IMG/VR virus record: IMGVR_UViG_3300020733_000010 | Coordinates: 114,145 to 178,144 of that record | Length of the DNA: 64,000 nucleotides | Strand: one strand, 5' to 3' | Source of the DNA: a virus | Part shown: positions 53,601 to 60,972 of the stretch, piece after piece | How positions within the stretch are numbered: the stretch's first letter is position 1 | Layout: each line of letters begins with the position of its first letter | The notes under the pieces: generated by a model | Seen by the model: the letters and a program-made list of their open reading frames with translations, nothing else | Database searches by the model: none | What the model was told of the DNA's origin: nothing | Translations under genes and position numbers: made by a program

Positions 53601-53675
53601 GGGGGCAGTAGCGGGCTACGGGTGATCCTTGCAAGATTGCTGACTAGAAGGGTTCAACTCCCTCGGCTTCCACCA
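53601..53675 (+). tRNA. tRNA-Ala(TGC) with short D arm
   Basis: G3.U70 pair, A73, ctTGCaa loop, CCA; D arm gtag-cggg-ctac. Confidence 0.75.
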
Positions 53676-54752: not shown

Positions 54753-55331
54753 ATGTTAGTAAAAACTTTATGTGAAGTTCCTATTGAACTTTTCAACAAT
54801 TCATTAATTGAAGTCAATAATATTGATTGGTCAAGTGTTGTTGATCCTTCACGCAAAGCAAGTGATGTGTTTTCAACAAGCACTGCGATTCACATGCGAG
54901 TTCATAAAGTTACAGATGACACACCAAAAACACTACGTGGATATTGTTCAGTAGTAGAGTGTGTTGATTCTTTACCTAACTCATTGCTATATCCAGAAGC
55001 ATACAAACTTGCAAACTGGATTTACAAACATGTTAATGGGTTACGTTTAGGTAGAATCATGTTAGTTAGGCTTGAAGCAGGTGGTTCTGTAGGATTACAC
55101 ATTGATCCATTTGAGTACTTTAAAGTATACTCACGATATCATGTACCCATCATTACAAATAGTAATGTACTATTCAGCGGCGGTGATGATTCAGAAAAAG
55201 AACACATGCCTGTAGGAATGTTAAGCAGACTTAACAATCGCAAGCCTCACATGCTAGTTAACGGTGGTTCAGATTTTAGAGTTCATTTGATTGTTGACGT
55301 TGAAACTGAAGGTGGAAACATCATATTTTAA
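54753..55331 (+). CDS. Aspartyl/asparaginyl beta-hydroxylase-family oxygenase
   Basis: GRIMLVRLEAGGSVGLHID, RYHVPIITN, LNNRKPHMLVN..RVHLIVD. Confidence 0.85.
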   Translation: MLVKTLCEVPIELFNNSLIEVNNIDWSSVVDPSRKASDVFSTSTAIHMRVHKVTDDTPKTLRGYCSVVECVDSLPNSLLYPEAYKLANWIYKHVNGLRLGRIMLVRLEAGGSVGLHIDPFEYFKVYSRYHVPIITNSNVLFSGGDDSEKEHMPVGMLSRLNNRKPHMLVNGGSDFRVHLIVDVETEGGNIIF

Positions 55332-56178
55332 TGTGGTCAATGTTCATCCTATAGAATTTACGTTCATTATCAGATACATCACTACCTAGAACTAGTTTTG
55401 TTCTACCATGAATAAAACTGTAGTTGTCATAGATTGCAATATCATACGTATCCCAAACATGTTTGTGATATAGTTCAGGATGTTCCAGTAACTCATCTAT
55501 GTATGTTTGTATCAAAGAACAATCAAGTTGTTTGATGTTATCAATATACACTTCCTTAATCCACGCATTCAAGTGTCCGTGTCTAACATAATAGTTAAGA
55601 CGCAATGACTTGTTGCCTGTAACAGGGTGTATCTTAATAAAATCATGCAGTTGTTCGTCAGTACCCATACTGTACCAACTTTGTTGTAATATAGTAACTC
55701 GGCTAATCAATTCTTTGAGTTTAGGTGAAAGGTACTCAATACCATCTTCAATGTTCAGCCAATATGTATTGCCTGATTCAACATTGTTGGGGTTCTTAAC
55801 GATCCATAATGCACGATGAGGGAATGGATTTTCTTTACGATTTGGTATATCAGCATGCCAAGCCATTACATCATTGCTAATGATCTTGGTTGAATGTATC
55901 TTGTTACTGAATTCAGTTATGTGATATGTCTTGTCGTTTTCTGATAGAGTAATACTACGTTCATTGCTATAGATGTAATCTTGTTGATTCCAAGGCTTGC
56001 CAAAACTGTGTCCAAACTTTGCATAGTCTAGTTCAGTAAAATTCATCTTTTTAAAAACAAGAAGTTTTCTTTGATAAATCAATTGTCTCCAGTAGTCAGT
56101 TGACTCATTAAAGAAATCTAATGGGTTATCAAATTCAACGATTGTTCCCCAAGATTTATGTATGGGTGTTAATCTCAT
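55321..56178 (-). CDS. TauD/TfdA-family dioxygenase
   Basis: WHAD, HPVTG..SL and DNYSFIHGR motifs; start moved to ATG 56178 (MRLTPIHKSWG), preceded by ATAAATA at 56184-56190, because the longer ORF start lies inside tRNA-Gly. Confidence 0.85.
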   Translation of the reverse strand: MRLTPIHKSWGTIVEFDNPLDFFNESTDYWRQLIYQRKLLVFKKMNFTELDYAKFGHSFGKPWNQQDYIYSNERSITLSENDKTYHITEFSNKIHSTKIISNDVMAWHADIPNRKENPFPHRALWIVKNPNNVESGNTYWLNIEDGIEYLSPKLKELISRVTILQQSWYSMGTDEQLHDFIKIHPVTGNKSLRLNYYVRHGHLNAWIKEVYIDNIKQLDCSLIQTYIDELLEHPELYHKHVWDTYDIAIYDNYSFIHGRTKLVLGSDVSDNERKFYRMNIDHIKI

Positions 56179-56192
56179 ACTGATATTTATAT

Positions 56193-56266
56193 GCGTGGTT
56201 AGTTTAACGGTAAAATCAAACATTGCCAATGTTTAGTCAAGGGTTCGACTCCCTTACCCCGCACCA
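56193..56266 (+). tRNA. tRNA-Gly(GCC)
   Basis: aaaca-ttGCCaa-tgttt arm, CCA. Confidence 0.88.
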
Positions 56267-56271
56267 GTTTT

Positions 56272-56329
56272 AGGATCGGTTCAGCAAACATAAAGCTAAC
56301 TTTGGATGTCTAGCGACAAAAACGATCCT
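56272..56329 (+). ncRNA. Small inter-tRNA stem-loop element
   Basis: aggatcg/cgatcct 7-bp closing stem enclosing gttCAGCAAacataaa. Confidence 0.35.
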
Positions 56330-56338
56330 GTTATATAT

Positions 56339-56505: not shown

Positions 56506-57054
56506 ATGTTTCAAAAACTCAATGTGGATATCAACGTAGGTAACTTTTCTCATGGCAACAAAATTACTGAATATTCGTATACTGTATTAAATGACAAATC
56601 AGTACCGCTTATTCAGTATCATGTTGCGTTAGGAGAATGCCGCGAAAAAATGTTACAACTTCTTCCGGAGAGATTCCGTTCTGCATTCGTTATTAACATA
56701 ATGAATATAGCAGGTATAGTTGTACCACACACTGATAGTAACATTAGGTGTACTATCAATCACTATGTCCAAACGAATGATGAGGAAACTATTTTCTTTG
56801 CATTCAAAGAAAATGCTGAGGGTTTTCAAATAACAAATCAAACGAATGGTAGGTTATTTAAACTTGATGAAGTGAATCGTGTTGATTCTTTTATAGCAAA
56901 AGCCGGAGAAACATGGATACTAGATGTTACCAAACCTCACGGTGTTAAGGGTCAAATGCCTATTAAAGATTATCGTGTTGCGATAGTTATGAATACTAAT
57001 ACCTATTCGTATCAAGAGGTATTAGAAATGTTGAAAGAAACAAATTCAATTTAA
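56506..57054 (+). CDS. 2OG-Fe(II) oxygenase-like protein
   Basis: VVPHTD, INHY, WILDVTKPHGV..RVAIV; TATAAATA at 56493-56500. Confidence 0.7.
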   Translation: MFQKLNVDINVGNFSHGNKITEYSYTVLNDKSVPLIQYHVALGECREKMLQLLPERFRSAFVINIMNIAGIVVPHTDSNIRCTINHYVQTNDEETIFFAFKENAEGFQITNQTNGRLFKLDEVNRVDSFIAKAGETWILDVTKPHGVKGQMPIKDYRVAIVMNTNTYSYQEVLEMLKETNSI

Positions 57055-57139: not shown

Positions 57140-57256
57140 GCCGCTGTCGTCTAATGGTAGGACGCTTAAAAAGGTGACTCTGACAAGAGTACATACAGCA
57201 ACATAAAAATTCCATGTTAAGGAAGTTATGGAGGTTCGATTCCTTCCGGCGGCACC
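57140..57256 (+). ncRNA. tRNA-shaped RNA whose anticodon loop is replaced by a 46-nt insert
   Basis: Perfect acceptor, D and T arms plus CCA; cttaa/ttaag anticodon stem encloses 57170-57215. Confidence 0.7.
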
Positions 57257-57261
57257 AATTA

Positions 57262-57342: not shown

Positions 57343-57409
57343 CCTCTGTGTAGTGTAACGGGAGCACACACGGCGCGCGGTGGTGAAGGTTCAATTCCTT
57401 CCACAGAGG
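57343..57409 (+). pseudogene. Degenerate tRNA-like element
   Basis: Acceptor and T arms intact; anticodon arm shortened and GC-rich with no U33 loop; no CCA. Confidence 0.55.
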
Positions 57410-59928: not shown

Positions 59929-60489
59929 ATGGCTGTTCTAGCACTTGATATTTCCGGAGTACCCCGACAGTGGATCTCCAACGATGATGCAATCTCATAC
60001 CACGCAACTAACAGTGTTGCATGGAGTATGGGTGACATTGTGGCAAAATACCGCGGTGGTGTTCAAAACGATGGCTCACTAAGTTACATCGAATCACCAA
60101 GTATCATTGCTATCAAGGGTCATGGATTTAACCCACACAAACATGCACATGTTGCATTAAGCAACAAAACATTGTTCGGTCGTGACCGTTATGTTTGTGC
60201 ATACTGTGGAGATCACTTCCCTAACTACCATGATTTGAGTCGTGACCATATTTTGCCACGCTTTCATGGTGGTGAAAACACTTGGATGAACGTGGTTACT
60301 GCATGTAAAGAATGCAACAGTAAGAAGGGTCATAAGACACTAAAAGAATCACGAATGGAACTTCTTTATGTACCTTACGAACCTAACCACTTTGAAAACA
60401 TGATTCTACAGAACCGCAACATTCTTGCGGATCAAATGGAATACTTGATGACAGGTGTCCCTAAGCATTCAAGGATTTTGTTGTCTTAG
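59929..60489 (+). CDS. HNH endonuclease
   Basis: CAYCG, SRDHILPRFHGG..W.NVVTACKECNSKKG; SD aggag. Confidence 0.9.
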   Translation: MAVLALDISGVPRQWISNDDAISYHATNSVAWSMGDIVAKYRGGVQNDGSLSYIESPSIIAIKGHGFNPHKHAHVALSNKTLFGRDRYVCAYCGDHFPNYHDLSRDHILPRFHGGENTWMNVVTACKECNSKKGHKTLKESRMELLYVPYEPNHFENMILQNRNILADQMEYLMTGVPKHSRILLS

Positions 60490-60972
60490 AAAGAGTTTAT
60501 TGATTCTATATAGAGTTGATAAAGTCTGAAAACTTTGAATGAAGAAGGGTACAAACAACATGTACCTTTCTTCGTTTGTATCATTTTGTAAATTGTGATT
60601 CACATGTGTATCAAACATGTAAGCACAGTTCTCGCTCCAATCTATCTTGTATGTTGGCTTGTGATCCTCATCATAGAAAAATGTAGGAGTTGATTCGCAG
60701 TTGTATAATGGAATTTGTATAACTGCTTTGCGACGGTTGTCTTTGTGTATAGGTAAGCCAGTACCAGGACTAAATCGCATAACCATCATAGGAGTTTCAT
60801 ATAGTTGTATGACTGGATGAAATTTTTGTTTAATAACGGTACAATCAAGATTTTTAAATATTGATTGACCCCATTCAAGTTTTTCCCAATCGTCTTGATT
60901 AGATGATAAAACTTGTGATAGAATTTCTTTTGTGTTTAATTGTAGTTCGGGAAGTTTGATGTAAGGTAACAT
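60469..60972 (-). CDS. 2OG-Fe(II) oxygenase-like protein
   Basis: LPIHKD..VIQIPL, MFDTHVNHNLQN..RYMLFV; GTAAATA at 60977-60983 (minus strand). Confidence 0.7.
   Translation of the reverse strand: MLPYIKLPELQLNTKEILSQVLSSNQDDWEKLEWGQSIFKNLDCTVIKQKFHPVIQLYETPMMVMRFSPGTGLPIHKDNRRKAVIQIPLYNCESTPTFFYDEDHKPTYKIDWSENCAYMFDTHVNHNLQNDTNEERYMLFVPFFIQSFQTLSTLYRINKLFLRQQNP

What the first reader, a model, noticed from the sequence alone, without database searches (positions are those of the whole stretch)
57140..57256. tRNA-shaped RNA with a branched 46-nt insert in place of the anticodon loop
Seen: perfect 7-bp acceptor, D arm, T arm and CCA, but the cttaa/ttaag anticodon stem encloses 46 nt containing hairpins actct-gaca-agagt and aacat-aaaattcc-atgtt around ACAGCAA. 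It is far too short for a group I intron and shows no clear bulge-helix-bulge motif or restorable U33 loop. Inference: a tRNA mimic (decoy for anticodon nucleases, synthetases or T-boxes), a tRNA scaffold that stabilises and processes a small functional RNA, or a minimal intron.
Basis: seen in the sequence. Interest (0 to 1): 0.72.

Follow-up and report, generated by a model that had tools for sequence, protein, structure and literature searches.

The report
tRNA-shaped phage RNA with docking arm
This giant-phage gene encodes a complete, CCA-ending tRNA look-alike whose anticodon stem carries a conserved 44-base side arm; the same arm marks other small RNAs that travel with a ring-shaped Ro60-like phage protein, so it is most likely that protein's RNA partner and not a broken tRNA or one with an intron.

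Summary
Window 57140-57257 is a tRNA-shaped gene with a 7-bp acceptor, D arm, T arm, A73 and CCA. ARAGORN and Rfam both miss it.

**Where the insert sits.** The extra 44 nt (57167-57210) do not replace the anticodon loop. They lie in the 5' strand of the anticodon stem, between nt 28 and 29. A normal 7-nt loop follows: AUGUUAA, with U33, anticodon GUU and A37.

**What the insert is.** It is a covarying hairpin followed by UAC-NNN-CAGCAA.

**How widespread it is.** I found this module in more than 50 distinct phage tRNA-shaped genes with many anticodons. A circularly permuted, free-standing form occurs in 131 mini-RNAs, and 63 of those display an anticodon-type hairpin. One mini-RNA lies in this window at 56267-56338.

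**The protein link.**
- Module-bearing phage records encode a DUF2828 protein in 34 of 50 cases, against 2 of 48 controls.
- Both DUF2828-positive controls turned out to hold module RNAs, against 1 of 45 DUF2828-negative controls.
- The module sits just upstream of that gene in five diverged lineages.
- The protein's predicted fold matches Ro60.

**Caveats.** This phage's own record is only about 51% complete and lacks the gene. Binding and retention of the arm are inferred, not shown.

This scan has already noted the same family on other genomes. I found no description of it in the papers I searched.

The parts
57140..57146 (+). acceptor stem, 5' strand (GCCGCUG)
   Evidence: Pairs with 57247-57253. 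All 7 pairs covary and are 100% paired in 51 homologues.
57149..57163 (+). D arm (GUCU-AAUGGUA-GGAC)
   Evidence: 100% paired in 51 homologues, with 3 of 4 pairs showing double changes.
57165..57166 (+). anticodon stem nt 27-28 (CU), lying before the insert
   Evidence: Pair with 57224-57225 (AG). 48 of 51 paired at each position, with CG/UA/UG/AU and UA/GC exchanges.
57167..57210 (+). 44-nt inserted module (register +-1-2 nt because of repeated U)
   Evidence: Found at the same place in more than 50 phage tRNA-shaped genes. Covariance model R1 scores the whole gene at 117 bits.
57174..57194 (+). handle hairpin GUGACUCU-GACA-AGAGUACAU (bulged A)
   Evidence: Inner 5 bp are 91% paired, with C-G/U-A exchanges in about 20 sequences.
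57196..57201 (+). invariant CAGCAA
   Evidence: Invariant in alignments A3 (51 sequences) and A5 (40 mini-RNAs). It was part of the search patterns, so this is partly by ascertainment.
57211..57225 (+). lower anticodon stem, 7-nt loop AUGUUAA (anticodon GUU at 57216-57218) and the 3' strand GGAAG
   Evidence: Position 36 flips C/U between near-identical copies.
57230..57246 (+). T arm (GGAGG-UUCGAUU-CCUUC)
   Evidence: 99.6% paired.
57247..57257 (+). acceptor 3' strand, discriminator A73, CCA
56267..56338 (+). free-standing, circularly permuted copy of the module (mini-RNA) filling the spacer between tRNA-Gly and tRNA-Arg: AGGAUCG-GUU-CAGCAA-...-CGAUCCU-GU
   Evidence: Model R2 gives 53 bits, E 1e-10. 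An orthologue lies in G002 at L365:17542-17613.

Best explanation
The gene encodes a tRNA-shaped small RNA. It is probably cut out of the tRNA-array transcript by the ordinary tRNA-end processing enzymes, and it keeps a 44-nt side arm in its anticodon stem.

The arm is a short helix followed by the single-stranded motif UAC-NNN-CAGCAA. I read it as a docking handle for a phage protein of the DUF2828/DUF7788 family, which has the ring-plus-vWA fold of Ro60. The tRNA body, and above all its intact anticodon stem-loop, is the part that the complex displays.

The RNA would therefore be an analogue of the tRNA-mimicking Y RNAs of bacterial Ro60, but built the other way round. Here a true tRNA with its own CCA end carries the handle. 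In YrlA a handle stem carries a closed tRNA-like domain.

**Shown here**
- The anatomy and its conservation.
- The same motif in free-standing RNAs and in the leaders of the protein gene.
- The genomic association between the RNA motif and the protein gene.
- The Ro60-like predicted fold of the protein.

**Inferred**
- That the protein binds the handle.
- That the arm stays in the mature RNA.
- That the RNA is not a normal decoding tRNA.
- What the complex does. My best guess is tRNA surveillance, or baiting of enzymes that attack anticodon loops.
For: 1. **Real gene.** 51 aligned homologues keep every helix with compensatory changes.
2. **The module is a unit independent of tRNA identity.** It occurs in tRNA bodies with at least 17 different anticodons, and one body recurs with different anticodons.
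3. **The motif occurs where no exons exist.** There are 131 distinct free-standing permuted copies. Of these, 63 enclose a hairpin with a 7-nt U33/R37 loop, against a shuffled mean of 6.9 and maximum of 14. One copy is in this window.
4. **A permuted copy lies 17-83 nt upstream of the DUF2828 reading frame** in five diverged lineages, with a covarying helix. The background rate is 0.035 per kb per strand. Model R2 finds the G002 and G003 leaders, which were not in its training set, at E 5e-8 and 7e-9.
5. **Co-occurrence.** DUF2828 is present in 34 of 50 module-positive records (9 of 9 that are at least 90% complete), against 2 of 48 controls (1 of 12). Fisher p = 8e-12.
6. **Blind test.** Both DUF2828-positive controls hold module RNAs, against 1 of 45 DUF2828-negative controls; p = 0.003.
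7. **Protein fold.** The model has pLDDT 93.7. The 12 best PDB matches are all Ro60/TROVE over the full length (TM 0.5-0.65, E 4e-8 to 5e-6), followed by vWA-only hits. The MIDAS residues are invariant.
8. **Gene neighbourhood.** In near-complete relatives the orthologous RNA gene lies 5-7 kb from the DUF2828 gene on the same strand.
9. **Against ordinary decoding.** The element has A73, while the window's canonical tRNA-Asp and tRNA-Asn have G73. Its clade mixes A73 and G73 with GUC and GUU. Sister copies differ only at position 36 plus a one-base length change. Six family members carry Ser anticodons with a 3-4-nt variable loop.
Against: - This phage's own record has neither a DUF2828 nor a TROVE gene. 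It is only about 51% complete and ends inside the tRNA array, so the partner gene is unproven for this genome.
- No experiment or RNA read shows that the arm is retained or that the protein binds it.
- Many positive records are related to each other, so the Fisher p-values overstate independence.
- CAGCAA was part of the search patterns, so its invariance is partly ascertainment.
- The strictly canonical anticodon loops, the encoded CCA and the normal T loop are also what a working tRNA would show.
- The second helix seen in the mini-RNAs is not supported in the tRNA-embedded copies, and is absent in this element.
- DUF2828 matches Ro60 by fold only. The sequence-profile match is weak (E 0.03-0.06).
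Confidence: 0.6

Rival explanations
1. It is a working decoding tRNA (Asn here, Asp in relatives) that permanently carries the arm. The arm would recruit the Ro60-like protein to a functional tRNA, for example to protect, mark or regulate it.
For: - The anticodon loop is canonical (7 nt, U33, A37), the T loop is normal and CCA is encoded.
- Anticodon stems covary.
- A C36/U36 switch would be tolerated, because AspRS and AsnRS read the anticodon (established knowledge).
Against: - A73 here, against G73 in the window's canonical tRNA-Asp and tRNA-Asn.
- Family members carry Ser anticodons without a long variable arm, and one carries an unusual A34 anticodon.
- The mini-RNAs carry only an anticodon hairpin and cannot be charged.
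- The element duplicates a canonical tRNA-Asn in the same array.
Confidence: 0.15
2. The 44 nt are a new kind of small tRNA intron at position 28/29. They would be removed by an unknown enzyme or by self-cleavage plus ligation to give a normal tRNA-Asn.
For: - Removing 57167-57210 leaves a perfect 5-bp anticodon stem and a 74-nt cloverleaf.
- The same insertion point is used in many tRNA identities.
Against: - The motif also occurs in RNAs with no exons and in the leaders of a protein gene.
- No Rfam ribozyme or intron match at E up to 10.
- At 44 nt it is far below group I intron size.
- No bulge-helix-bulge motif.
- No tRNA-splicing endonuclease or RtcB in this phage or in four relatives, three of them at least 97% complete; the positive controls responded.
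Confidence: 0.12
3. The module is a processing or regulatory signal of tRNA-array transcripts, such as a nuclease entry site or a folding aid. It would be unrelated to DUF2828, whose co-occurrence would only reflect shared ancestry of phages with large tRNA arrays.
For: - All copies lie in or beside tRNA arrays.
- Positive records include groups of related phages.
Against: - Large tRNA-rich phages without the module lack DUF2828; seven controls of 148-390 kb have neither DUF2828 nor an R2 hit.
- The module sits directly at the DUF2828 start in five lineages.
- The blind test was passed.
Confidence: 0.1
4. It is a decaying tRNA pseudogene with a chance insertion.
For: Standard tRNA finders miss it.
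Against: More than 50 distinct homologues carry compensatory changes in every helix, including the insert.
Confidence: 0.01

Closest known systems
YrlA-type Y RNAs bound by bacterial and mycobacteriophage Ro60/Rsr (Chen et al. 2014, PMC4201824; Rfam RF02553)
   Same: - A small RNA that combines a protein-docking helix with a tRNA-like module.
- Encoded near, and on the same strand as, a Ro60-fold protein gene.
- Recognised by tRNA enzymes.
   Different: - In YrlA the RNA ends lie in the Ro-binding stem and the 'acceptor' is a closed hairpin. Here the acceptor is open, with CCA, and the handle is a capped side arm in the anticodon stem.
- The motif is CAGCAA, not GNCGAAN0-1G.
- The protein is DUF2828/DUF7788, not Pfam TROVE.
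- A true 7-nt anticodon loop is kept.
- There is no Rfam match.
Thermus phage phiLo Ro60 with Yrl1/Yrl2 (PMC12135203; PDB 9KOP, 9L5Y)
   Same: - A phage-encoded Ro60-fold protein with small RNAs encoded directly upstream of its gene.
- 9KOP and 9L5Y are among the best fold matches of the DUF2828 model.
   Different: - Yrl1 and Yrl2 carry CGAA motifs in a stem-bulge-stem and have no tRNA body or anticodon hairpin.
- That protein is a sequence-level TROVE member.
Archaeal non-canonical tRNA introns (bulge-helix-bulge; PMC4090602)
   Same: A short insert at a non-canonical position of a tRNA gene, whose removal would restore a cloverleaf.
   Different: - No BHB motif and no splicing endonuclease.
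- A bacterial-phage context.
- The insert is a conserved motif that also exists outside tRNAs.
Bacterial and phage group I introns in tRNA genes (PMC3984707)
   Same: An insert in the anticodon arm of a phage or bacterial tRNA gene.
   Different: Group I introns are about 200 nt or more, lie in the anticodon loop and have a P1-P9 core. This insert is 44 nt, lies in the stem and has no Rfam match.

Membership tests
tRNA (Rfam RF00005) | Acceptor, D and T arms with conserved loop residues | tested here: met
   7-bp acceptor, 4-bp D stem, 5-bp T stem with UUCGAUU, and CCA.
tRNA (Rfam RF00005) | Uninterrupted 5-bp anticodon stem; recognised by tRNA models | tested here: not met
   The stem is split by 44 nt between nt 28 and 29. 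There is no ARAGORN call and no Rfam hit, even at E up to 10.
tRNA (functional Asn or Asp acceptor) | Identity elements: the anticodon plus discriminator G73 | tested here: not met
   The element has A73. The window's canonical tRNA-Asp (two copies) and tRNA-Asn have G73. The element's clade mixes A73 and G73. Aminoacylation itself is not testable here.
YrlA Y RNA (RF02553) | GNCGAAN0-1G Ro-binding motif near the 5' end, with the RNA ends in the Ro-binding stem | tested here: not met
   No RF02553 match. The ends are at an open acceptor stem with CCA. The conserved motif is CAGCAA.
YrlA Y RNA (RF02553) | Encoded within about 4 kb of a TROVE Ro60 gene on the same strand | tested here: not met
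   There is no TROVE or DUF2828 gene in this record. In relatives G002 and G003 the orthologue lies 5-7 kb from a DUF2828 gene on the same strand.
Ro60/TROVE proteins (for the DUF2828 partner in relatives) | HEAT-repeat ring plus a C-terminal vWA domain with MIDAS | tested here: met
   AF2 model with pLDDT 93.7. The top 12 PDB matches are all Ro60/TROVE over the full length. D275, S277, S279, T349 and D381 are invariant.
Ro60/TROVE proteins (for the DUF2828 partner in relatives) | Match to the Pfam TROVE profile (PF05731) | tested here: not met
   Pfam gives only DUF2828 and DUF7788. The profile search against PDB Ro60 sequences gives E 0.03-0.06.
Ro60/TROVE proteins (for the DUF2828 partner in relatives) | Binds a Y-type RNA helix | not testable with these tools
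   Support is genomic association only.
BHB tRNA intron | Bulge-helix-bulge at the exon-intron borders, and a splicing endonuclease available | tested here: not met
   No 3-4-3 BHB motif can be drawn at 57166/57167 and 57210/57211. PF01974 is absent from five records while the archaeal controls responded.
Group I intron | A catalytic core of about 200 nt or more, located in the anticodon loop | tested here: not met
   The insert is 44 nt, lies in the stem and has no Rfam match.

The most novel reading that the evidence does not exclude
Phages of many lineages run a Ro60-like ribonucleoprotein system whose RNAs form a repertoire of displayed anticodon stem-loops. These range from mini-RNAs to whole tRNAs, all joined to one CAGCAA handle. 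The anticodon would be a freely exchangeable 'address'. The complex would bait, sequester or monitor enzymes that act on particular anticodon loops, such as host anticodon nucleases used in anti-phage defence. Alternatively it would direct repair or decay of damaged tRNAs.
Probability: 0.25. Interest if true: 0.9.

Novelty: new variant of a known kind. Interest (0 to 1): 0.76.

Why it matters
**For Ro60 biology.** Ro60-Y RNA particles are known in animals, in some bacteria and in a few phages, and what their tRNA-like RNAs do is still an open question. This work links a very large, unnamed protein family to that biology: 6,184 cluster representatives at E <= 0.001. The RNA partner has a defined motif and can be found by sequence search.

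**For function.** The RNAs display genuine anticodon stem-loops with exchangeable anticodons. This points to a function tied to anticodon-loop recognition, a current theme in phage-host conflict. It can be tested directly by pull-downs, EMSA, small-RNA sequencing and challenge with anticodon nucleases.

**For annotation.** These genes are invisible to ARAGORN and to Rfam's tRNA model, so phage tRNA arrays are being mis-annotated.

Tried and rejected
- **Phage GenBank search.** A BLAST of the region against phage GenBank records found only tRNA-Cys matches.
- **Upstream ORF.** The ORF at 56506-57054 has no relatives in the viral collection and no Pfam or PHROG family.
- **Loose pattern.** The scan with CTTANAAAAG...CAGCAA gave mostly chance hits, which I reused as control records.
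- **Comparison with the window's tRNAs.** Alignment with tRNA-Asn and tRNA-Thr showed only generic similarity.
- **Single-sequence fold.** The first fold of the DUF2828 protein was unusable (pLDDT 42) and was replaced by an alignment-based fold.
- **First blind test.** A strict text pattern failed on controls G079 and G093. The covariance model later found module RNAs in both. The G079 copy is a weak, variant one with CCGCAA (E 2.7e-4).
- **Second helix.** I looked for a helix between the junction strands, as seen in the mini-RNAs. It is not supported in the tRNA-embedded copies.
- **Consensus fold of the mini-RNAs.** RNAalifold recovered only the outer helix.
- **Extending past the contig end.** Both attempts failed, and metagenome records could not be searched as whole records.
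Rejected on pair counts.
- **Known small ribozymes.** Hammerhead, twister, pistol and hatchet were considered, but there is no Rfam match.

Full report
**Context.** The window is the last 64 kb of a 178-kb IMG/VR viral contig that CheckV rates at about 51% complete. It carries 28 ARAGORN tRNA genes between 53 and 64 kb. Interspersed among them are HNH homing endonucleases, 2OG-Fe(II) dioxygenase-like proteins and ORFs of unknown function. Neither ARAGORN nor Rfam, even at E up to 10, reports anything at 57140-57257.

**The observation.** The sequence has a 7-bp acceptor stem, U8, a D arm (GUCU-AAUGGUA-GGAC), a T arm (GGAGG-UUCGAUU-CCUUC), A73 and CCA ending at 57257. The minimum-free-energy fold instead pairs UUCC with GGAA around the 7-nt loop AUGUUAA. 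That loop has U33, GUU and A37.

**Homologues.**
- DNA-pattern scans of the viral, metagenome and genome collections returned many homologues.
- After filtering for a 7-bp acceptor and a T arm, 53 distinct genes carried the module with a canonical anticodon-type loop.
- The closest relatives (L004, L008) differ from the window's element by one extra A and by C instead of U at anticodon position 36.

**Structure, tested by covariation on a MAFFT alignment of 51 sequences (A3).**
- Acceptor and D stems are 100% paired and the T stem is 99.6% paired.
- The inner 5 bp of the insert hairpin are 91% paired, with about 20 C-G/U-A double exchanges.
- No shuffle of 500 reaches the observed covariation.
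- Pairs 27-43 and 28-42 are formed by the two nucleotides before the insert: 48 of 51 paired each, with CG/UA/UG/AU and UA/GC types.
- Pairs 29-41 to 31-39 are formed by the nucleotides after the insert.
- The module is therefore a 44-nt insertion (57167-57210) between nt 28 and 29 of the anticodon stem's 5' strand. The register is ambiguous by 1-2 nt because of repeated U.
- Its parts are an A-rich strand, a bulged hairpin ending in UAC, three variable bases, the invariant CAGCAA, and a 6-11-nt linker.

**The module is independent of tRNA identity.**
- It occurs with anticodon triplets GUC, GUU, CAU, GCC, GCU, GGA, GGU, UCG, UCU, UGU, UCC, UUU, UUC, CUC, UGG, UUA and AUG.
- One body recurs with different anticodons. 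The GCCGCUG body of this element carries GUC, GUU and UCG.
- Sister pairs differ only at position 36 plus a one-base length change: the window versus L004, and L051 versus L045.
- The element has A73, whereas the window's canonical tRNA-Asp (two copies) and tRNA-Asn have G73. G73 as an identity element for AspRS and AsnRS is my own background knowledge, not a tool result.
- Six members carry Ser anticodons with only a 3-4-nt variable loop.
- These points argue against ordinary aminoacylation identity. They do not exclude it for this copy.

**The same motif outside tRNAs.**
- A script scan found a circularly permuted copy in this window at 56267-56338. It exactly fills the spacer between tRNA-Gly and tRNA-Arg and reads AGGAUCG-GUU-CAGCAA-(35 nt)-CGAUCCU-GU.
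- An orthologue lies in relative G002.
- Across all fetched loci there are 131 distinct short permuted copies. Of these, 96 enclose a hairpin with at least a 4-bp stem and a 7-nt loop (shuffled mean 45).
- 63 have U33 and R37 (shuffled mean 6.9, maximum 14). They typically read CU-NNN-AA, with UUU the commonest triplet.
- An alignment of 40 such mini-RNAs supports both helices with many double changes. Those sequences were selected for having both helices, so the paired percentage is partly by construction.
- The window's own mini-RNA has an imperfect inner hairpin.
- A second helix that the mini-RNAs appear to form after CAGCAA is not supported in the tRNA-embedded copies.

**Link to a protein.** Earlier notes of this scan on other genomes suggested a Ro60-like DUF2828 partner. 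I treated that as a lead and tested it.
- This record has no DUF2828 and no TROVE gene.
- Among 50 module-positive viral records, 34 have DUF2828, including 9 of 9 that are at least 90% complete. Among 48 control records, 2 have it, and 1 of 12 near-complete ones. Fisher p is 8e-12, which is overstated because some records are related.
- Seven large, tRNA-rich control phages (148-390 kb) have neither DUF2828 nor a module hit.
- In five diverged lineages a permuted module with a covarying helix lies 17-83 nt upstream of the DUF2828 frame, often with larger module-closed RNAs further upstream. The background rate is 0.035 per kb per strand.
- In the near-complete relative G002, the DUF2828 gene follows the tRNA array on the same strand, and the orthologue of this element lies about 5 kb upstream of it.
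- Blind test: a covariance model of the mini-RNAs (R2) finds module RNAs in both DUF2828-positive controls, clearly in G093 and as a weak variant in G079. It finds them in only 1 of 45 DUF2828-negative controls, and that one is a 36%-complete fragment whose tRNAs are near-identical to G093's.

**What the protein is.**
- Pfam gives DUF2828 plus DUF7788.
- A profile search against PDB sequences gives only weak hits, but the top four are Ro60/TROVE proteins aligned at the MIDAS motif.
- An AlphaFold model built from 131 diverse sequences has pLDDT 93.7 and pTM 0.92.
- Its 12 best Foldseek matches are all Ro60/TROVE proteins over the full length: Xenopus and human Ro60 with RNA, Deinococcus Rsr, and Thermus phage phiLo Ro60. 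After them there is a sharp drop to vWA-only hits.

**Intron rival.** No ribozyme or intron family matches. No tRNA-splicing endonuclease or RtcB is present in this phage or in four relatives, while the controls responded. The motif also exists in exon-less RNAs.

**Copy number.** The whole-gene model R1 finds one copy in this phage and one each in G002 and G003. It finds six in G012 and at least three in G013.

**Literature.**
- YrlA Y RNAs mimic tRNA but have a different motif and the reverse topology (PMC4201824).
- Phage phiLo Ro60 binds upstream Yrl RNAs with CGAA motifs and engages host PNPase (PMC12135203).
- Jumbo phages are noted to carry TROVE proteins 'with a tRNA-like partner' (PMC7824862).
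- A search for 'DUF2828' returned five unrelated papers.
- I found no description of a CAGCAA handle or of a handle embedded in a complete tRNA.

**Verdict.** This is a real member of a widespread, apparently undescribed family of phage RNAs. I read it as a tRNA-shaped partner RNA of a Ro60-like protein (confidence about 0.6). Binding, retention of the arm, and the presence of the protein gene in this particular phage remain unproven.

Noticed in passing
window 56267-56338: A free-standing, circularly permuted CAGCAA module (a mini-RNA of about 72 nt) fills the spacer between tRNA-Gly(GCC) and tRNA-Arg(ACG). It probably becomes free when the two tRNAs are processed. Its inner hairpin (GCUA-AC-UUUGGAU-GU-C-UAGC) is a less perfect anticodon mimic than in most relatives.
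   Followed up: yes
window 57344-57409: A second tRNA-shaped gene that ARAGORN misses. Acceptor, D and T arms are present (Rfam tRNA 42.8 bits in local mode), but the anticodon arm is replaced by a short GC-rich stretch (ACACGGCGCGCGGUGGUG) and there is no CCA. The string was found only in this genome among 369 fetched loci, and the near-identical array of L004 lacks it.
   Followed up: partly
window 53601-53675: ARAGORN places the anticodon of tRNA-Ala(TGC) at position 30 instead of 33-35, which suggests an unusual D region. Rfam does not list this gene at its gathering score.
   Followed up: no
L003:469-558, L006:3046-3135, L009:12730-12819: A different tRNA-like family in other viral contigs. 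It has the same D arm and T loop, no CCA, and about 52 nt in all (a GCAUC/GAUGC stem enclosing about 42 nt) where the anticodon arm should be. There is no CAGCAA, and ARAGORN finds no tRNA in these loci.
   Followed up: no
L007:1344-1431: A tRNA-like gene with a roughly 45-nt extra region after a short anticodon-like hairpin. It contains CUGAUG...GAAA, which superficially resembles a hammerhead core.
   Followed up: no
L368 (G079:63000-71000): A longer DUF2828 protein (536 aa) lies directly downstream of a 17-tRNA array on the same strand. The only module-like RNA there has CCGCAA instead of CAGCAA, so the motif may vary between protein subfamilies.
   Followed up: partly
L182:2330-2507 versus window 56269: The near-identical metagenome contig has about 177 extra bases between tRNA-Gly and the mini-RNA that this window lacks.
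   Followed up: no
window 54753-56229 and 60469-60972: Three 2OG-Fe(II) dioxygenase-like ORFs (Asp/Asn beta-hydroxylase type and TauD type) and two HNH endonucleases are embedded between tRNA genes of the array.
   Followed up: partly
L365:10410-10600 (- strand), relative G002: An RNA of roughly 200 nt, closed by UGGAUGG...CCAUCCA and beginning with AUA-CAGCAA, lies upstream of the DUF2828 leader module. Larger module-closed RNAs of this kind recur in other lineages.
   Followed up: partly
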